From NCBI GenBank assembly GCA_964630975.1, contig CAZVVY010000004.1, forward strand, positions 37,912-101,911: 64,000 bases of DNA, read 5' to 3'. This document shows positions 358 through 36,753 of the stretch, in pieces (the stretch's first letter is position 1; every line of letters begins with the position of its first letter). This DNA is from Candidatus Micrarchaeota archaeon. GTDB lineage: Archaea; Micrarchaeota; Micrarchaeia; Norongarragalinales; Norongarragalinaceae. A program made the position numbers and the translations under genes. The notes below the pieces were generated by a model. The model was given only the letters and a program-made list of their open reading frames with translations, was not told the DNA's origin and ran no database searches.

Positions 358-939
358 TTAGAAACGCTCCGAACGCATTGGCTTCGTAAACAAGTAGTAT
401 TTTGCGTCGCCCGACAACTCGTGGACTACGCGCTCGCAAACGATTTCCACTACGCCGCCCAAGTGGTGGACGCGGCCGTTGAAGTCCTCGAAAGACTCGA
501 ACGGCTTTTTTTCACGCGCCTCCAAAATAGCTTTCAAGTGTTTTTTGCCTACTCCCGGCAAGTGCTCCAACACGTGTGTTCTCATCGTAATCGAGCCCGC
601 ACGGTTCAGGAAAGAAACTATTTTTTCTTCTTTTCCCGTAACCAGTTTTTTGATTAAGTCGTCGGCTTCCGCCTTCGCCGAATTAGTGAGTTCGGAATAT
701 TTTAAGCGCCCGCGAATCCTGTCGATTTTCTCGCGTTCTTCCTTGCCGACGTAAACCGTTTCGCCGACGTCGAAGGAAGCGCCTTCCTTGGGCACGGCTT
801 CAAGCAAAGTAAAGCTTTCAGTGCCCAAGAGTTGCACTAATGGTTCGCGTTTTGCTTCGCCGGACTTGCCGTAAGGCAGAAAATCCAGTACCAATGCCTG
901 TTCTTCGCGGCCCAACACTTTGAATCCCTCACAACCCAA
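358..939 (-). CDS. DUF655-type archaeal nucleic-acid-binding protein (N-terminal OB-like part plus C-terminal helix-hairpin-helix)
   Basis: 193-aa ORF. LEHLPGVGKKHLKAILEAREKKPFESFEDF is an HhH motif. Conserved position between rpoF and ksgA. Confidence 0.7.
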   Translation of the reverse strand: MGCEGFKVLGREEQALVLDFLPYGKSGEAKREPLVQLLGTESFTLLEAVPKEGASFDVGETVYVGKEEREKIDRIRGRLKYSELTNSAKAEADDLIKKLVTGKEEKIVSFLNRAGSITMRTHVLEHLPGVGKKHLKAILEAREKKPFESFEDFNGRVHHLGGVVEIVCERVVHELSGDAKYYLFTKPMRSERF

Positions 940-1002: not shown

Positions 1003-1338
1003 TTACTTCTTGGGTTTGAACTTCTTGACTACGTCCATTACCTGCTTGACTTGGTCGTCCGACAACGGCTCGCCGCCGAAAGCCACTGCAGACTTGACGT
1101 AAGCCTGTTTGATAGGCAACAAGTTCACTAGCGCCTCGACTTGCTTTTCGGAAAGGAAGCCGAGTTTGTCGAGTTCCTTAGCCAAATCCTTTGCTTTCTT
1201 CTTGTCCAAATAAGAGAATTGCTGTGAATACTCGTAAGCGCGCTGTTGCTCGAACGAGAGCTCGCCCGCCTTCTGGCGCTTGTCCAGTATTTCGCGGGCT
1301 TCATCCAAAACAACGGGTTTTTCAGACAACTTCTCCAT
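1003..1338 (-). CDS. rpoF: DNA-directed RNA polymerase subunit F (Rpo4, Rpb4 homologue)
   Basis: 111 aa, helical, K/E-rich. LSFEQQRAYEYSQQFSYL...ELDKLGFLSEKQVEALVNLLP resembles the RpoF HRDC-like fold. It starts 3 nt after the rpl21e stop. Confidence 0.8.
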   Translation of the reverse strand: MEKLSEKPVVLDEAREILDKRQKAGELSFEQQRAYEYSQQFSYLDKKKAKDLAKELDKLGFLSEKQVEALVNLLPIKQAYVKSAVAFGGEPLSDDQVKQVMDVVKKFKPKK

Positions 1339-1341
1339 TCT

Positions 1342-1620
1342 TCAAGCACCAACCAAGTGGGCGTTGCCCACTACCAACTCCTTAACCTTGTCGCCGTCCT
1401 TGATTCCGACTACGTAACTCTTGCCTTGACGGCCCTTTACAATGCCGACCTTGCCGTTAAAGCGCAGGGTGGACGGCCTGCCCGACTTAACGGACGGGTT
1501 CAACTTCAGCCGAACCCTTTCTCCTTCCTTGAACTCCTTGAGCGCCGCGGCGGCGGTCAAGCGACCCAAGCTCTTGAAGTGCCTGCTCCTGCGAACGTTT
1601 TGGCCACGAGAATGCTTCAA
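1342..1620 (-). CDS. rpl21e: 50S ribosomal protein L21e
   Basis: 92 aa. MKHSRGQNVRRSRHFKS...FNGKVGIVKGRQGKSYVVGIKDGDK matches the L21e family pattern. Confidence 0.9.
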   Translation of the reverse strand: MKHSRGQNVRRSRHFKSLGRLTAAAALKEFKEGERVRLKLNPSVKSGRPSTLRFNGKVGIVKGRQGKSYVVGIKDGDKVKELVVGNAHLVGA

Positions 1621-1782
1621 AGTAATCGCCTCAAAAATTTGTCAATACATAGTGCGGTTGCACGTATTAAAAACTATTTGATGGCCTTAAATACGTTTTC
1701 AAACAAAAAAAACGCGCACTTAAATAAGTATTTAAAGGCCAAAACACAACGTTTTTAAAGCAAATCGGGGGCATTAAACAAA

Positions 1783-2109
1783 ATGGTTAAGAAAAAAGCG
1801 AAAAAAACCGTGAAAAAACGCGGTAAAAAAAAGAGGATGAACACCGGCTTCAAAGTCGAAAACATCGTTGCAAGCGCCAACCTCGGCGTGGAACTCGACT
1901 TGTTCAACATCGCCATGGGCCTAGAAAACGTGGAGTACGAGCCCGAACAATTTCCGGGCGCCATAATGCGCCTGAAAAGAATCCGCACCACGCTGTTGCT
2001 CTTCAAGAACGGCAAAGTGATTTGCTCGGGAGCCAAGAGCGAGGCGCAAATCGGGCGCAGCATTAAGACGGCGGCCAAAATACTCAATAAATACGCCAAA
2101 TGGGAGTAA
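1783..2109 (+). CDS. Single-repeat TATA-box-binding-protein-like protein (one TBP fold repeat preceded by a Lys-rich tail)
   Basis: 108 aa. VENIVASANLGVELDLFNIAMGLENVEYEPEQFPGAIMRLKRIRTTLLLFKNGKVICSGAKSEAQ aligns by eye with one TBP repeat (compare Pyrococcus C-repeat ...EYEPEQFPGVIYR...LLFSSGKIVCSGAKSE). Only about 160 nt of non-coding DNA lies upstream and the 5S rRNA lies 40 nt downstream, so there is no room for a second repeat. Confidence 0.8.
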   Translation: MVKKKAKKTVKKRGKKKRMNTGFKVENIVASANLGVELDLFNIAMGLENVEYEPEQFPGAIMRLKRIRTTLLLFKNGKVICSGAKSEAQIGRSIKTAAKILNKYAKWE

Positions 2110-2149: not shown

Positions 2150-2268
2150 GGTCAGCGGCCATAGGAGAGGGGCATACGCCCGTTCCCATCCCGAACACGG
2201 AAGCAAAGCCCTCTTACGACTTCGCGAGTACTGTGCTCCGCACGGAAAACCGGGTTGCTGCTGCCACT
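2150..2268 (+). rRNA. 5S ribosomal RNA (orphan, not linked to 16S/23S in this window)
   Basis: GGTCAGCGGCCATAGGAGAGGGGCATACGCCCGTTCCCATCCCGAACACGGAAGCAAAGCCCTCTTACGACTTCGCGAGTACTG...GCTGCTGCCAC. It contains the universal 5S CCGAAC / GAACACGGAAG / AGTACTG blocks. The ends are approximate (+/-3 nt). Confidence 0.9.
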
Positions 2269-2921: not shown

Positions 2922-3746
2922 TCAACCGATGACGAAGTCGACAACGAACTGGCTCGTGCGCGGCGCATAAGGCCGCACCATTCGCTCGCCCTCGAAAACC
3001 GCTTTTCGGTTGTGCGCCGCACACTTTTCACTAATCAATTTTTTCGCTTCGGAGTAAAGGTCTCCGGTCGGCCCGAACCCGTAAAAATGAATTTTGCAGC
3101 CCGGTTTCTGGTTCGGAATGACGTCGTCCAAGAAGTCGGCGCCCGTGTGCGGCAACGGCATCAAAACGCGGTCGGCCCAACTCCTTTTCGCCGGCAAAAA
3201 GTCGCGTGCGTCCGCGCAAACCGCTTCGACTCTGCCGCCTACCTTGTTCAAAGAAACGTTTTCCTTCATTGCTTGGGCGGCGTAAGGGTTCAATTCGACT
3301 CCGATGCACTGCACGCTTTTTGCCTTGGAGATTACTATGGGGAACGGCCCGACTCCCGCAAACAAGGCAAGTATTCTTTCGCCTTCTTGGGTCAGGCCGC
3401 GTATGCGGGCGCGCTCGGTCGACAGTCGCGGCGAAAAATAGGTGCGAGCCAAATCGAATTTGAATACGCACCCGTTTTCGCGGTACTCCGCCATCGTGGT
3501 TTTCTCGCCGGCGAGCCACTCGAATTCGCGGACACGGTATTCCCCCTTCATCGCACTCTTTTTTCGCAGGACGGTCTTCAAGTGAGGGTGCAACTCCATC
3601 AACCGCTCCGCCAAAAACTCCTTTTTGTGCTCGAGTTCGGGGCGCACCTCGATCACTGCGGTCGCCCCCAACACGTCGAAGCCGCCCGTGAAGCACGCGA
3701 TTTCTTCTTCCGACAACTCGCCGCGCAACGAATCCTTCCACTTCAT
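2922..3746 (-). CDS. trm5: tRNA (guanine37-N1)-methyltransferase Trm5 / Taw22-type class I SAM methyltransferase
   Basis: 274 aa. DLARTYFSPRLSTERARI (the Trm5 YFSPRL motif), SAM-binding ILALFAGVGPFPI, and the NP motif VELNPYA. Confidence 0.85.
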   Translation of the reverse strand: MKWKDSLRGELSEEEIACFTGGFDVLGATAVIEVRPELEHKKEFLAERLMELHPHLKTVLRKKSAMKGEYRVREFEWLAGEKTTMAEYRENGCVFKFDLARTYFSPRLSTERARIRGLTQEGERILALFAGVGPFPIVISKAKSVQCIGVELNPYAAQAMKENVSLNKVGGRVEAVCADARDFLPAKRSWADRVLMPLPHTGADFLDDVIPNQKPGCKIHFYGFGPTGDLYSEAKKLISEKCAAHNRKAVFEGERMVRPYAPRTSQFVVDFVIG

Positions 3747-3781
3747 AACGATTTAAAGAAAGGCACGCGTTAAAATGGGTT

Positions 3782-4594
3782 ATGGGATTCGTCGAAGAAC
3801 ACTTTTTGAACCCGATGCGCTACCCTGAGTATTACGCTCCCTACAACTGGGTTAACACGCTCGCCTATGCGGCCTCCGCAGTGTTCGCCGCGTACCTGCT
3901 TTACGGCCTCATCAAGCGCAAGGGCTTCAAACTCGACGAAAAATTCGCGGAAGCCGTGCTTCCCTTCGTGGTGTTCGGCAGCGCTCTCCGAGTCGTAACC
4001 GACGCCGGAATACTGCCGAGGACCGTTGTTTTTCACGGTTTCGAGTTGCACCCTTTCATCAGCCCGGGCATTTACTTCGTGACCTTCGCCTCAATGGTTG
4101 CCGGCTTCGCAATCGCGCGCTTGATGGGGGGAAACTGGTTGCGAAACGCGTTCGGGCTCGGGTCCGTGCTCGCAATAATTCCTTTGGCCGCACTCCTTCC
4201 GTACTACGCTTACTGGGGGCACGCAATCGCGATAACGGTCGTGCCCTTGCTTGCGCTGGCCGCCTACGAGTTCGCTTGGAAGAACGGGAAAGGGTTGTTC
4301 GAGCGCCTCACCGTTTTCGGTCAGGGGTTGGACGGCGCCGCCTCTTTCATAGGCATTCAATTCGGGACCCCCACCCAATCATACTTCGAGCAACACGTGG
4401 TCGGCGCCGCAATAATGGATTCGGCTCCCGTCGCCTTCCTCATCGTGAAACTAGTTTTCGCGTTCCTGGTCTTGGCGGCTTTGAGGCACGGAGAAGACGA
4501 TTCACAGGAAAGAAAATTCATTTTGTTGCTCGTCGCAATATTCGGGTTGGCTCCCGGCCTCCGCGACTTGCTCCGCATAATGTGCGGCGTATAA
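3782..4594 (+). CDS. Polytopic membrane protein (DUF63-like, recalled from memory only)
   Basis: 270 aa with about 7-8 hydrophobic helices. It lies between the two wyosine-pathway genes trm5 and taw1. Confidence 0.6.
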   Translation: MGFVEEHFLNPMRYPEYYAPYNWVNTLAYAASAVFAAYLLYGLIKRKGFKLDEKFAEAVLPFVVFGSALRVVTDAGILPRTVVFHGFELHPFISPGIYFVTFASMVAGFAIARLMGGNWLRNAFGLGSVLAIIPLAALLPYYAYWGHAIAITVVPLLALAAYEFAWKNGKGLFERLTVFGQGLDGAASFIGIQFGTPTQSYFEQHVVGAAIMDSAPVAFLIVKLVFAFLVLAALRHGEDDSQERKFILLLVAIFGLAPGLRDLLRIMCGV

Positions 4595-5751: not shown

Positions 5752-6006
5752 TTATTGTTTTCGTTGTTCCCCGGAGCCCTGGTGGCCAACCGGCATTTCA
5801 ACGAAGCGCACCTTGCCTTGGCCCGCCGTATAAATAACGCGGATTACGCCGGAAATCATTCCCGCGTCCTCCAGCTTCTGGAAGAATTCAAGAGTGGTGT
5901 CCTCTTTTACGCCTACCGCTCCCTCGAACACGGCGTCAACGGGCTCAAAGCCGTCCTCCTTCTTCAAGGCATCCAAAATCTTCAAAACTTCTTCCTTGGT
6001 ATTCAC
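5752..6006 (-). CDS. Hypothetical 84-aa protein
   Basis: Clean ORF with plausible composition. No motif recognised. Confidence 0.45.
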   Translation of the reverse strand: MNTKEEVLKILDALKKEDGFEPVDAVFEGAVGVKEDTTLEFFQKLEDAGMISGVIRVIYTAGQGKVRFVEMPVGHQGSGEQRKQ

Positions 6007-6119
6007 GGCGAAAACACACCTCTGAAACCAATTAACCGCGCTCGCATTAATAAACCCGGCGCACTAAAAACGTATTTAAATCGGTGAACAGTTAATTTCA
6101 AAGAGGGTGAACGTTCAAA

Positions 6120-6407
6120 ATGGTTAAGTACGCTATAGCAAAACAACTCGCAGGAAAGAAGATTATTACTACGGACGGTGAAGAACTCGGCCGGGTAATC
6201 GACTTGTACTTCGATGAGAGAAGCGGCCGCCTCGAAAAAGTAATCATCGAGCCCAACCCCGAATCGTCGCTCGCCGAAAAAGCGGGGCATGAAGCAGGGG
6301 GATACATAACCATCCCGTATTCGGCGGTTCTCGACGTAAAAGACGTGATGGTCGTCGACAGGCGCGCCCTCGCCGGAAACGCCCCTTCACACGTTTTCAA
6401 CGCGTAA
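6120..6407 (+). CDS. PRC-barrel domain protein
   Basis: 95 aa. LAGKKIITTDGEELGRVIDLYFDERSGRLEKVII...IPYSAVLDVKDVMVV is the typical PRC-barrel pattern. Confidence 0.7.
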   Translation: MVKYAIAKQLAGKKIITTDGEELGRVIDLYFDERSGRLEKVIIEPNPESSLAEKAGHEAGGYITIPYSAVLDVKDVMVVDRRALAGNAPSHVFNA

Positions 6408-28166: not shown

Positions 28167-28826
28167 TTGAACGCGAAAGGCGTTAAATGTTTCGTGTACT
28201 ACCCCGGAACCCTCATCCCGAAGAGCAAGCCGCACCACTACGCTTGGGAAAAAGAGTACCGGAGGCAAGGCGGCTTGTGGGCGGGCTCTTCAGAGCGCCT
28301 TGAATTGTGGGGCCGTGTCTTGGAGTTGGGTTGTGGAAACGGCAAGGGGCTGAAAAGCATTTTCGCCGGGGAATTGCACGCCATCGACGTCTCGGAAACC
28401 GCTTGCGGGCTCGCACGAAAAGAATGCCCGGGCGCGAAAGTGGTTTGCGGCGACTTTTGTCTTCTTCCGTTTCCCGACGGCTTCTTCGACTTCGTTGTTG
28501 CAAGGCACGCCTTCGGCCACTTGTCGAAAAAGGAGAGGAAGCAAGCGGCCGCGGAATGCTTGCGGGCGTTGAAGGCAGGAGGAAAACTGTTTTTCAAGGA
28601 TTTCGCGGTTGGGGACATGCGTTACGGCAAGGGAGAAGAAGTCGAGGAGAACACGTTTCGGCGCGGAAACAACGCGTGGTACCATTATTTTTCGTTGGGC
28701 GAGGCGACCGAATTGTTTAAAGATTTTCGCGAAGAATACTTGGAGTTAAGGGAATCCACTAAAAAGTTTGGTGTAAGAAAATGGGTGAAAGCGGTTTATT
28801 TCAAAGGGAACGGGAAGAAGAAGTAA
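28167..28826 (+). CDS. Class I SAM-dependent methyltransferase
   Basis: Motif I VLELGCGNGKGL, motif II-like VCGDFCLLPF, and post-I acidic residue. Non-ATG start (TTG 28167 or GTG 28194). Confidence 0.8.
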   Translation: MNAKGVKCFVYYPGTLIPKSKPHHYAWEKEYRRQGGLWAGSSERLELWGRVLELGCGNGKGLKSIFAGELHAIDVSETACGLARKECPGAKVVCGDFCLLPFPDGFFDFVVARHAFGHLSKKERKQAAAECLRALKAGGKLFFKDFAVGDMRYGKGEEVEENTFRRGNNAWYHYFSLGEATELFKDFREEYLELRESTKKFGVRKWVKAVYFKGNGKKK

Positions 28827-34275: not shown

Positions 34276-34301
34276 ATTTTTTTTTAATGGATTATTATTA
34301 A

Positions 34302-34376
34302 TAGCGGGGAGAGGATTTGAACCTCCGATCTCCGGGTTATGAGCCCAGCGGGCACTCCTGACTACCCTACCCCGCT
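34302..34376 (-). tRNA. Initiator tRNA-Met (CAU)
   Basis: Reverse complement: AGCGGGGTAGGGTAGTCAGGAGTGCCCGCTGGGCTCATAACCCGGAGATCGGAGGTTCAAATCCTCTCCCCGCTA. It forms a cloverleaf, has an A1:U72 pair and three G:C pairs closing the anticodon stem (GGG/CCC), both initiator hallmarks. No encoded CCA. Confidence 0.9.
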
Positions 34377-34410
34377 AAAAACAGCGAACATATTCTAGGT
34401 TACCGGTCGT

Positions 34411-35538: not shown

Positions 35539-35692
35539 GGGCCCATAGCTCAGTTTGGCCAGAGCACTCGGCTCTTAACCGAGGCGTCGAGGGTTCGAAC
35601 GAACCCTTTTCTTTGTAAAGAAAAGTGTTTCATCCCAAAAGAAACTCTTTTCAACGAAAAAGAGAAGGGTTGTGAAAATCCCTCTGGGCCCG
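35539..35692 (+). tRNA. tRNA-Lys (CUU) interrupted by a ~79-nt intron inside the T-loop (about position 59/60; intron about 35600-35678)
   Basis: Exon 1: GGGCCCATAGCTCAGTTTGGCCAGAGCACTCGGCTCTTAACCGAGGCGTCGAGGGTTCGAA. Exon 2: TCCCTCTGGGCCCG. Joined, they give a perfect 75-nt cloverleaf (acceptor GGGCCCA/TGGGCCC, T arm GAGGG-TTCGAAT-CCCTC, anticodon loop CTCTTAA). The junction is ambiguous by 1-2 A residues. Confidence 0.85.
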
Positions 35693-36682: not shown

Positions 36683-36753
36683 GCAGGGCTGACAGAGCGG
36701 CTATGTGCCCGCCTGCAGAGCGGGTCAGGGGGGTTCGACTCCCTCGCCCTGCT
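36683..36753 (+). tRNA. tRNA-Cys (GCA)
   Basis: GCAGGGCTGACAGAGCGGCTATGTGCCCGCCTGCAGAGCGGGTCAGGGGGGTTCGACTCCCTCGCCCTGCT. Acceptor GCAGGGC/GCCCTGC, anticodon stem CCCGC/GCGGG, loop CTGCAGA, T loop TTCGACT, U73 discriminator typical of tRNA-Cys. The D stem is short (3 bp). Confidence 0.85.

What the first reader, a model, noticed from the sequence alone, without database searches (positions are those of the whole stretch)
1783..2109. Half-size TBP: a single TBP repeat with a Lys-rich N-terminal tail
Seen: the 108-aa ORF contains exactly one TBP-fold repeat, highly similar to the C-terminal repeat of canonical archaeal TBP (EYEPEQFPG ... LLF.NGK.ICSGAKSE). It is preceded by MVKKKAKKTVKKRGKKKR. 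Flanking DNA (about 160 nt of promoter-like A/T-rich sequence upstream, the 5S rRNA 40 nt downstream) cannot encode a second repeat, and no frameshifted remnant is visible.

Established: canonical TBP is a pseudo-symmetric two-repeat saddle thought to derive from duplication of a single-domain ancestor.

Inference: this protein could work as a homodimer that recreates the saddle, with the basic tail adding DNA affinity. It could instead be a TBP-domain paralogue with another role while a canonical TBP is encoded elsewhere.
Basis: partly seen in the sequence, partly recalled or inferred. Interest (0 to 1): 0.7.

Follow-up and report, generated by a model that had tools for sequence, protein, structure and literature searches.

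The report
Single-lobe TATA-binding protein of Micrarchaeota
This archaeon's gene for the TATA-binding protein, a core transcription factor, encodes only one of the usual two lobes plus a short basic tail; the same form sits in the normal tbp gene position in dozens of related species, so it probably works as a symmetric pair, like the presumed ancestor of this factor.

Summary
ORF 1783-2109 (+) encodes 108 aa: one complete TBP lobe (Pfam PF00352, E 1.3e-28) after a disordered Lys/Arg-rich tail. There is no second lobe or remnant beside it or elsewhere in the 64-kb window.

It is not an artefact. The same protein occurs on more than 25 independent contigs. Single-lobe orthologues are found in about 70 species-level Micrarchaeota genomes, 60 of them a tight clade that includes Norongarragalinales.

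The gene occupies the conserved tbp slot, divergent from L21e-Rpo4/F-DUF655. All 12 two-lobe TBPs of related Micrarchaeota that I examined sit in that same slot. Its core is 79% identical across the 60 genomes, against 40-53% for the neighbouring genes. The DNA-kinking Phe residues and the TFB-binding stirrup motif are intact.

In the two-lobe relatives the two lobes are up to 85-90% identical, also at codon level. Some genomes carry duplicated single-lobe genes, so lobe number changes easily in this phylum.

Best reading (about 0.6): this is the lineage's main TBP and acts as a homodimeric saddle, with TFB and its recognition element (BRE) setting direction. The main gap is that I could not search a whole genome for another TBP. 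Single-lobe archaeal TBPs are already known, but only as accessory or divergent paralogues, so this is a new variant of a known kind.

The parts
1783..2109 (+). Complete coding sequence of the single-lobe TBP (108 aa plus stop)
   Evidence: ORF list and sequence. Single PF00352 hit. The identical protein is found on 7 independent contigs, and the 91%-identical orthologue on 20.
1783..1839 (+). Lys/Arg-rich N-terminal tail (aa 1-19, MVKKKAKKTVKKRGKKKRM; 12 K/R), predicted disordered
   Evidence: pLDDT 45-56 for aa 1-20. A basic tail of the MAKK... type, 5-27 aa long, is present in nearly all single-lobe orthologues. The upstream frame is open for at least 12 codons in 71 of 72 loci, against 30 and 23 for the other two frames. 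In 41 of 72 loci there is no alternative Met near strand S1.
1849..2094 (+). TBP lobe (aa 23-104): S1-H1-S2-S3-S4-S5-H2, with Phe57 and Phe74 and the stirrup motif EYEPEQFPG
   Evidence: Pfam. PDB alignments show EYEPEQFPG and the LLLFKNGK Phe aligned to both lobes of solved archaeal TBPs. AF2 model plus Foldseek give rmsd 0.8-0.9 A to one TBP lobe. Columns N27, V29, E51-G59 and L72-K78 are invariant in a 71-sequence alignment.
1752..1759 (+). TATA-like box TTTTTAAA, ending 24 nt before the ATG; probable promoter of the gene (leaderless or short-leader mRNA)
   Evidence: Sequence. TTTAAA at 1754-1759. Many genes of the window have an A/T hexamer about 27-32 nt before the start codon. Its function as a promoter is inferred.
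2151..2266 (+). 5S rRNA gene 41 nt downstream, with its own TTTAAA box at 2122-2127
   Evidence: Rfam RF00001, 65.1 bits. TTTAAA at 2122. A 5S gene lies within 400 nt downstream on the same strand in 12 of 75 single-lobe genes in the GTDB loci.
1342..1620 (-). Ribosomal protein L21e gene, divergent neighbour; anchor of the conserved tbp slot
   Evidence: PF01157 on the identical neighbour in L009 and L012. Found upstream and divergent in 53 of 60 group-A loci; the other 7 loci show no L21e match.
1003..1338 (-). RNA polymerase subunit Rpo4/F (Rpb4 family) gene, part of the slot
   Evidence: PF03874 on the called product. Conserved next to L21e in the related loci.
358..939 (-). DUF655 gene, part of the slot
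   Evidence: PF04919 on the called product. Conserved upstream of both single-lobe and two-lobe TBP genes.

Best explanation
This gene is the lineage's orthologue of the general transcription factor TBP, reduced to one lobe.

Proposed mechanism (inferred):
- Two copies of the 108-aa protein pair through the central edge of their beta-sheets and form the ten-stranded saddle that canonical TBP builds from two covalently linked lobes.
- The symmetric dimer bends the short TTTAAA-type TATA boxes of this genome, using Phe57 and Phe74 of each subunit.
- Either of the two identical EYEPEQFPG stirrups can take TFB. Promoter direction is set by TFB reading the BRE, as is established for archaea (recalled knowledge).
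- The disordered Lys/Arg tail of each subunit adds non-specific affinity for the DNA backbone.

Proposed origin (inferred): recombination or slippage between the near-identical lobes of a two-lobe ancestor removed exactly one repeat unit. The reverse step, duplication then fusion, also seems to occur in this phylum.

Shown: anatomy, fold, conserved motifs, positional orthology, strong purifying selection, wide distribution.
Inferred: dimerisation, TATA binding, TFB recruitment, role of the tail, and that it is the only TBP.
For: 1. One complete TBP lobe with intact DNA-kinking Phe residues and stirrup motif.

2. Positional orthology. In the window and in 53 of 60 group-A genomes the gene lies divergent from L21e-Rpo4/F-DUF655. 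All 12 two-lobe TBPs examined in related Micrarchaeota occupy that same slot: P0001, P0013, P0003, P0043, P0050, P0084, and L085, L087, L091, L092, L094, L097. Group-B single-lobe genes L081, L086, L093 and L095 do too.

3. Constraint. The core averages 79% identity over 60 species-level genomes, against 45% for L21e, 40% for Rpo4/F and 53% for DUF655 in the same loci. The two copies binned in MAG JAZDKC01 are 96% identical in protein with synonymous sites near saturation (46% identical codons).

4. A symmetric saddle is viable. Two-lobe relatives have lobes 70-90% identical to each other. Both stirrups of M. jannaschii TBP already read EYEPEQFPG.

5. Lobe number changes easily. The lobes of the two-lobe relatives share identical codons at 61-89% of identical residues in 6 of the 7 genes examined (45% in L091), against a baseline of about 47%. 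There is a tandem pair of single-lobe genes in L083 (a 300-nt direct repeat, 97% identical). The complete genome CP058998 has two copies 98% identical at the nucleotide level. For P0005, L094 and L091 each lobe's nearest relative is the partner lobe, followed by single-lobe proteins.

6. It is not an artefact: more than 25 independent contigs from ENA, JGI, NCBI and Logan and 72 of 80 GTDB loci with a single-lobe ORF.

7. The tail is translated and conserved as a feature.
Against: - No complete genome could be searched, so a second TBP, either two-lobe or a divergent single lobe, elsewhere in these genomes is not excluded.
- The genome scan used exact 8-residue words from this protein and kept only the best 80 loci. 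By my estimate it would have caught only about 7% of typical two-lobe relatives, so its silence means little.
- All previously described archaeal single-lobe TBPs coexist with full TBPs (PMC3597702).
- Dimerisation, DNA binding and TFB binding are untested. The structure tool models single chains only.
- The Fermentimicrarchaeum-type single-lobe genes (L082, L083, L088, L098, L099) are not in the L21e slot, and what occupies the slot there is unknown.
- No TFB gene was seen among the 10 window proteins I scanned, so the partner was not examined.
Confidence: 0.6

Rival explanations
1. Accessory paralogue. The genome also encodes a canonical two-lobe TBP somewhere outside the window. The single-lobe protein would then be a regulator or alternative factor, for example competing for TFB or for TATA boxes, like halobacterial TbpA or the Thermococcales monopartite TBP-domain proteins.
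For: Every single-lobe archaeal TBP described so far coexists with full TBPs (PMC3597702). I could not scan whole genomes, and the one genome scan had low sensitivity for two-lobe TBPs.
Against: The gene occupies the ancestral tbp slot, and all 12 examined two-lobe TBPs of relatives are in that slot. A canonical copy would therefore have to be a second, so far unseen, lineage. The gene is far more conserved than the adjacent ribosomal and polymerase genes, unlike the dispensable TbpA or the highly diverged Thermococcales proteins. No genome among the 80 loci shows both a single-lobe and a two-lobe gene.
Confidence: 0.2
2. Split TBP that works as a heterodimer. A second, more divergent single-lobe gene elsewhere in the genome supplies the other half of the saddle, as with other split genes of DPANN archaea.
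For: Some Micrarchaeota genomes do carry two single-lobe genes: L083 in tandem, CP058998 at 442 kb and 888 kb, and MAG JAZDKC01.
Against: Where two copies exist they are 93-98% identical in protein, so they are not an N-like and a C-like pair. Only one locus per genome was found for 59 of the 60 group-A species. There is no further TBP-like ORF in the 64-kb window or in the 12-kb loci. The scan would, however, miss a divergent partner.
Confidence: 0.12
3. Artefact or pseudogene: a normal tbp gene truncated by misassembly, frameshift or recent decay.
For: One related short contig does look chimeric. In P0055/L100 the GC3 value jumps from 0.20-0.26 to 0.59 exactly at the conserved EYEPEQFPG motif, which shows that such artefacts occur in TBP genes.
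Against: The identical 108-aa ORF is present on 7 contigs and the 91% orthologue on 20 contigs from independent assemblies. Single-lobe ORFs occur in 72 of 80 GTDB loci. Purifying selection is strong. There is no remnant of a second lobe in the flanks.
Confidence: 0.02

Closest known systems
Canonical archaeal TBP (two-lobe; e.g. M. jannaschii 2Z8U, P. woesei 1PCZ/1AIS, S. acidocaldarius 1MP9)
   Same: Same fold per lobe (rmsd 0.8-0.9 A). Same Pfam family. 42-47% identity to the solved archaeal lobes in the structural alignments. Same Phe pair and EYEPEQFPG stirrup. Same genomic slot as the two-lobe TBPs of related Micrarchaeota.
   Different: One lobe instead of two in the polypeptide. It carries a basic N-terminal tail. 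It is below every NCBIfam TBP cut-off and is annotated 'hypothetical protein' in NCBI MAGs. It must oligomerise to form a saddle.
Near-symmetric two-lobe TBPs of other Micrarchaeota (P0001/L013, P0005, P0013/L016, P0003/L018)
   Same: Closest sequences: about 57-62% identity per lobe across these proteins (P0013 is not in that call's listing). Same slot next to L21e-Rpo4/F-DUF655. The linker between their lobes is basic, and some have basic N-tails (L085, L092).
   Different: They keep two covalently joined lobes. These are 70-90% identical to each other, also at codon level, which points to recent duplication or gene conversion.
Halobacterial TbpA (single TBP domain; Brindefalk et al. 2013, PMC3597702)
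   Same: A single lobe that clusters with genuine TBP lobes rather than with distant TBP-fold families.
   Different: According to the paper, TbpA is very similar to the full-length TBPs of the same species, coexists with them, and is not essential. Here the gene sits in the chromosomal tbp slot, is conserved across about 60 species, and no co-resident full TBP has been seen.
Thermococcales monopartite TBP-domain proteins (about 82-136 aa; PMC3597702, Table 3)
   Same: Small stand-alone proteins made of one TBP-fold domain in Archaea.
   Different: Those are strongly diverged from TBP (only weak local similarity), form their own sequence cluster, and coexist with 174-192-aa TBPs. The protein here scores 99 bits on the Pfam TBP model and is 55-70% identical to TBP lobes.

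Membership tests
TBP (Pfam PF00352; archaeal/eukaryotic TATA-binding protein) | TBP-lobe fold S1-H1-S2-S3-S4-S5-H2 | tested here: met
   PF00352 E 1.3e-28 over the whole model. AF2 secondary-structure order matches. Foldseek rmsd 0.8-0.9 A to TBP lobes, and all 44 significant hits are TBP.
TBP (Pfam PF00352; archaeal/eukaryotic TATA-binding protein) | Two tandem lobes in one polypeptide forming the pseudo-symmetric saddle | tested here: not met
   One Pfam hit in 108 aa. One domain by local HMM. No remnant in the flanks. NCBIfam TBP models score 66-89.5 bits against cut-offs of 181-347.
TBP (Pfam PF00352; archaeal/eukaryotic TATA-binding protein) | Pair of DNA-intercalating Phe residues per lobe, and minor-groove contacts in S1 (N-x-V) | tested here: met
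   F57 (EQFPG), F74 (LLLFKNG) and N27/V29 align with the corresponding residues of solved TBPs and are invariant in 71 sequences. That these residues intercalate is recalled from the yeast and archaeal co-crystal literature.
TBP (Pfam PF00352; archaeal/eukaryotic TATA-binding protein) | TFB/TFIIB-contact stirrup (acidic E-P-E motif before the first Phe) | tested here: met
   EYEPEQFPG is identical to the stirrup in both lobes of M. jannaschii TBP and the C lobe of P. woesei TBP. The contact role is recalled knowledge. Binding itself was not tested.
TBP (Pfam PF00352; archaeal/eukaryotic TATA-binding protein) | Orthologous genomic position of tbp in the phylum | tested here: met
   Slot DUF655-Rpo4/F-L21e, then TBP divergent: 53 of 60 group-A loci and 12 of 12 two-lobe relatives.
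TBP (Pfam PF00352; archaeal/eukaryotic TATA-binding protein) | Binds and bends TATA DNA and nucleates TFB and RNA polymerase | not testable with these tools
   Needs EMSA, footprinting and in vitro transcription.
Accessory single-lobe TBP paralogues (halobacterial TbpA type) | Coexists with one or more full-length TBPs in the same genome | tested here: inconclusive
   None was seen in the window, in the 12-kb loci or among the 80 GTDB loci.
Thermococcales-type monopartite TBP-domain proteins | Sequence strongly diverged from TBP lobes, forming a separate cluster | tested here: not met
   The protein is 55-70% identical to lobes of genuine TBPs and scores 99 bits on PF00352. The paper reports only weak local similarity for that class. 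No direct sequence comparison was made.

The most novel reading that the evidence does not exclude
Whole clades of Micrarchaeota (the order Norongarragalinales, plus Burarchaeum-like and other lineages) have no two-lobe TBP at all. They initiate all transcription with a homodimer of a single TBP lobe. In this phylum the factor has also switched repeatedly between one-lobe and two-lobe forms, by recombination between near-identical lobes and by duplication followed by fusion. That would be a living equivalent of the hypothetical ancestor of TBP before its duplication, and a natural replay of the duplication-fusion step.
Probability: 0.5. Interest if true: 0.85.

Novelty: new variant of a known kind. 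Interest (0 to 1): 0.72.

Why it matters
TBP is used at every promoter in archaea and eukaryotes. Its two-lobe saddle is the textbook example of a protein thought to have arisen from a homodimer by duplication and fusion. That ancestral state has only been inferred. The single-lobe TBP-domain proteins known so far are accessory or highly diverged and coexist with full TBPs.

A single-lobe protein in the tbp locus, under very strong constraint, across an order-level clade would make the homodimer state directly testable: structure, DNA bending, and how direction is set by TFB and the BRE alone on a perfectly symmetric factor. The mix of single, duplicated, freshly fused and diverged two-lobe forms in one phylum also offers a rare series for studying how internal repeats are gained, homogenised and lost.

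There is a practical point too. These proteins fall below the annotation cut-offs and are labelled 'hypothetical', so genome surveys may score these lineages as lacking TBP.

Tried and rejected
1. Second TBP in the window. A tblastn at E up to 100 and a local lobe HMM on all ORFs of at least 50 aa found only the known gene. The weak hit at 28458-28673 is antisense to a methyltransferase ORF.

2. Looking for a co-resident canonical TBP in the same genomes. I estimate only about 7% sensitivity for typical two-lobe relatives, so its silence is not evidence. Matching contig lengths of the two-lobe hits against the contigs carrying single-lobe genes showed no shared contig, which is very weak evidence.

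3. P0055 as the 'sister' two-lobe TBP whose C lobe groups with the single-lobe clade (NJ bootstrap 60). Rejected. It is a singleton on a 965-bp contig, and its GC3 jumps from 0.20-0.26 to 0.59 exactly after EYEPEQFPG of lobe 2, so it is probably a chimeric assembly.

4. 'Derived from the C-terminal repeat'. Not resolvable, because the nearest two-lobe relatives have nearly identical lobes. Deletion by recombination between lobes would in any case give a hybrid.

5. A palindromic TATA box as a signature of a symmetric TBP. TTTAAA boxes are common about 30 nt before start codons here, but the flanks are not symmetric (WTTTAAAG), and from memory TTTAAA-type boxes are ordinary in archaea. I kept this only as a passing note.

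6. Internal Met19 as the true start, giving a protein without a tail. Unlikely as the only start, because 41 of 72 orthologues have no Met there and the upstream frame is selectively open. An additional tail-less isoform in this species is not excluded.

7. Literature searches for a described Micrarchaeota or DPANN single-lobe TBP found nothing beyond Brindefalk 2013 and one sentence in Ravarani 2020. The library lacks most subscription journals.

8. A Pfam scan of 10 window proteins for TFB found none.

9. The small ORF between L21e and TBP in the two-lobe relatives is a weakly conserved hydrophobic, probably membrane, protein. It is absent here and irrelevant.

Full report
**What is there**

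The ORF at 1783-2109 (+) is real and encodes 108 aa. Pfam finds exactly one TBP domain, PF00352, covering aa 23-104 and the full 85-position model at E 1.3e-28. NCBIfam TBP models align only over their second half and score 66-89.5 bits against cut-offs of 181-347. That explains why NCBI MAG annotations call the orthologues 'hypothetical protein'.

Against solved structures the protein matches both lobes of archaeal TBPs about equally. For M. jannaschii 2Z8U the scores are 68.4 and 67.9 bits.

An AlphaFold2 model built on a 71-sequence alignment gives the lobe topology S1-H1-S2-S3-S4-S5-H2, with pLDDT above 90 for aa 28-104 and a low-confidence tail at aa 1-20. Foldseek against the PDB returns 44 hits with E <= 0.001. 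All are TBP, with rmsd 0.8-0.9 A over about 81-86 residues and a TM-score normalised to the target of about 0.45, i.e. one lobe of two.

The flanks cannot hold another lobe. Upstream there are 162 nt to the divergent L21e gene. Downstream there are 41 nt to a 5S rRNA gene at 2151-2266. A permissive tblastn finds no remnant and no second TBP anywhere in the 64 kb.

**It is not an artefact**

The identical protein is encoded on 7 contigs, and a 91%-identical orthologue on 20 contigs. These come from independent ENA, JGI, NCBI and Logan assemblies of groundwater and microbial-mat samples. All have the same length and the same neighbours.

**Distribution**

A scan of one genome per GTDB species returned 80 loci, almost all from Micrarchaeota MAGs. 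With a lobe HMM I built locally, 72 of these loci carry a single-lobe ORF (93-150 codons between stop codons) and 8 carry a two-lobe gene.

Sixty species form a tight group A, at least 72% identical to the window's lobe. Group A is monophyletic in a neighbour-joining tree of 313 lobes, with bootstrap support of 63. By record titles it includes Ca. Norongarragalinales, among them the type MAG LFW-144_1. PMC8561730 describes this order (GTDB o__UBA8480) as sister to the other Micrarchaeia.

A looser group B is 52-61% identical to the window's lobe. It includes Burarchaeum and the complete genome of Ca. Fermentimicrarchaeum limneticum. The scan was seeded with 8-residue words from this protein, so the distribution outside Micrarchaeota is not known.

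**Positional orthology**

In the window and in 53 of 60 group-A loci the gene lies divergent from L21e, followed by Rpo4/F and DUF655. The other 7 loci show no L21e match.

Every two-lobe TBP of related Micrarchaeota that I examined sits in the same slot:
- six looked up by exact protein: P0001, P0013, P0003, P0043, P0050, P0084;
- six from the GTDB scan: L085, L087, L091, L092, L094, L097.

Group-B single-lobe genes L081, L086, L093 and L095 do as well. So the single-lobe gene replaces the two-lobe gene at the phylum's tbp locus rather than being added elsewhere. The exception is the Fermentimicrarchaeum-type subgroup (L082, L083, L088, L098, L099), which lies elsewhere and is duplicated.

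**Constraint**

Across the 60 group-A genomes the lobe averages 79% identity to the window's. In the same loci L21e averages 45%, Rpo4/F 40% and DUF655 53%. Orthologues at 76-80% protein identity share identical codons at only about 47-51% of identical residues, so synonymous sites are near saturation. The two copies binned in MAG JAZDKC01 are 96% identical in protein but 78% in DNA. This is the pattern expected of an essential protein with many interaction partners.

The residues that matter for TBP function are invariant in the 71-sequence alignment and align with solved TBPs:
- N27 and V29 in strand S1;
- the stirrup E51-Y-E-P-E-Q-F57-P-G;
- L72-L-F74-K-N-G-K.

That the two Phe residues per lobe kink the DNA, and that the acidic stirrup contacts TFB/TFIIB, is recalled from the co-crystal literature. 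I did not test either point.

**The tail**

Nearly all single-lobe orthologues begin with a short basic segment of the MAKK... type, 5-27 aa long. The window's tail (18-19 aa, 12 K/R) is among the longest.

The tail is translated. The in-frame region upstream of S1 is open for at least 12 codons in 71 of 72 loci, against 30 and 23 loci for the other two frames. In 41 of 72 loci there is no alternative Met near S1.

In this species Met19 aligns with the start Met of the two-lobe relatives. The tail therefore looks like an N-terminal extension, and a tail-less isoform cannot be excluded. Some two-lobe relatives also have basic N-tails: L085 has 38 aa with 24 K/R. Their inter-lobe linkers are basic too.

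**Lobe number changes easily in this phylum**

- Among 117 close two-lobe TBPs, the identity between the two lobes of one protein ranges up to 85-90% (P0001, P0005).
- In 6 of the 7 two-lobe genes examined, the two lobes share identical codons at 61-89% of identical residues, against a baseline of about 47%; L091 is at 45%. The similarity is therefore recent at the DNA level: duplication or gene conversion.
- For P0005, L094 and L091 the nearest relative of each lobe is its partner lobe, and the next nearest are single-lobe proteins.
- L083 carries two single-lobe genes as a 300-nt direct repeat, 97% identical and 1269 nt apart.
- The complete genome CP058998 carries two copies 98% identical in DNA, at 442 kb and 888 kb.

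Together these look like a series: single, duplicated, fused, diverged. Recombination between near-identical lobes can run it backwards by deleting exactly one unit. Which direction dominated needs a species tree.

**Mechanism (inferred)**

Two subunits pair to rebuild the saddle. Near-symmetric two-lobe relatives show that a self-complementary lobe interface works. M. jannaschii TBP already has identical stirrups on both lobes.

The dimer would bind the short TTTAAA-type boxes found about 27-32 nt before many start codons here. These include the gene's own box at 1752-1759 and the 5S box at 2122-2127. Direction would come from TFB reading the BRE, as is established for archaeal promoters (recalled knowledge). 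The tails would add non-specific DNA affinity.

**What remains open**

I could not search a whole genome. The genome scan would have caught only about 7% of typical two-lobe relatives. A co-resident canonical TBP, or a divergent second half, is therefore not excluded. I give the homodimeric main-TBP reading about 0.6, an accessory paralogue 0.2, a split heterodimer about 0.12, and an artefact 0.02.

**Comparison with what is known**

Single-lobe TBP-domain proteins in Archaea are already on record. Brindefalk et al. 2013 (PMC3597702) describe two kinds: halobacterial TbpA, which is close to the full TBPs of the same species and non-essential, and strongly diverged Thermococcales proteins of about 82-136 aa. 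All coexist with full TBPs. Ravarani et al. [quoted passage not shown]

I found no description of a single-lobe TBP in the tbp locus of Micrarchaeota or other DPANN archaea. The searchable library lacks most subscription journals.

It is a TBP by fold, motifs and locus. It fails the family's two-lobe architecture. It differs from both known single-lobe classes in location, conservation and closeness to genuine TBP. I therefore file it as a new variant of a known kind.

**Verdict**

The homodimer interpretation is favoured but unproven. Interest is high for transcription evolution (0.72). The decisive test is simple: a whole-genome TBP census in closed genomes, followed by dimerisation and DNA-binding assays.

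Noticed in passing
L013:3577-4125 (P0001); also P0005, L016:6001-6549, L018:6001-6543: Two-lobe TBPs of related Micrarchaeota have lobes 70-90% identical to each other. They share identical codons at 69-89% of identical residues, against a baseline of about 47%. This points to recent internal duplication or ongoing gene conversion between the lobes.
   Followed up: partly
L083:4709-5008 and 5978-6277; L088 and L098 (CP058998.1 at about 442 kb and 888 kb): Some genomes carry two almost identical single-lobe TBP genes. One pair is in tandem (a 300-nt direct repeat, 97% identical, 1269 nt apart). One pair is dispersed in a complete 1.18-Mb genome (98% nucleotide identity). Neither pair lies next to L21e.
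   Followed up: partly
L100:359-901 (P0055, 965-bp JGI contig): This two-lobe TBP has a compositional break. GC3 is 0.20-0.26 through lobe 1 and the first half of lobe 2, then 0.59 from the EYEPEQFPG motif onwards, and that last part resembles the single-lobe clade. It is probably a chimeric assembly joined at the conserved motif. It misleadingly appears as sister of the single-lobe clade in the tree.
   Followed up: yes
window, whole; e.g. 1754, 2122, 2302, 3752, 35851, 49478, 57066: The hexamer TTTAAA occurs only 16 times, against 46 +/- 6 expected from dinucleotide-preserving shuffles. By my reading of the listed positions, most occurrences lie in intergenic DNA, often about 27-32 nt before a start codon. 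This suggests avoidance inside genes and use as the TATA box of mostly leaderless or short-leader genes.
   Followed up: partly
window 3746-3782: A divergent gene pair (Trm5/Tyw2-like on the minus strand, AliA/AliB-family on the plus strand) has start codons only about 35 nt apart. Each gene's TATA-like box (TTTAAA at 3752, TTTTAA on the other strand at about 3771) lies close to the other gene's start codon.
   Followed up: no
window 35545-35609 and 36683-36753: The two tRNA callers disagree. Rfam reports a weak partial tRNA hit at 35545-35609 (33 bits, model positions 7-64) that ARAGORN does not call. ARAGORN calls a tRNA-Cys at 36683-36753 that Rfam did not list at gathering threshold. Both agree on tRNA-Met at 34301-34377 (minus strand).
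   Followed up: no
L084 (DATJMH010000022.1, 6-kb contig): A single-lobe TBP gene with DUF655 and Rpo4/F nearby sits in a MAG labelled Candidatus Saccharimonadales bacterium. This is almost certainly an archaeal contig that was mis-binned. L076 is labelled Marsarchaeota but carries a group-A gene.
   Followed up: no
L069 and L075 (both MAG JAZDKC01): Two group-A single-lobe genes in one MAG are 96% identical in protein (86 of 90 lobe residues) but only 78% identical in DNA. Either this is a mixed bin of two species, or they are old paralogues under very strong purifying selection.
   Followed up: partly
window 2151-2266 and L020-L099: A stand-alone 5S rRNA gene lies directly downstream of the TBP gene here. 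It lies within 400 nt downstream on the same strand in 12 of 75 single-lobe genes in the GTDB loci, and elsewhere in the locus in 12 more, so the link is partly conserved.
   Followed up: partly
L013:3151-3465, L017:5601-5882, L018:5650-5922: In the two-lobe relatives a small, weakly conserved hydrophobic ORF (90-104 aa, probably a membrane protein, no Pfam hit) sits between L21e and TBP. It is absent from the window and from group-A loci.
   Followed up: partly
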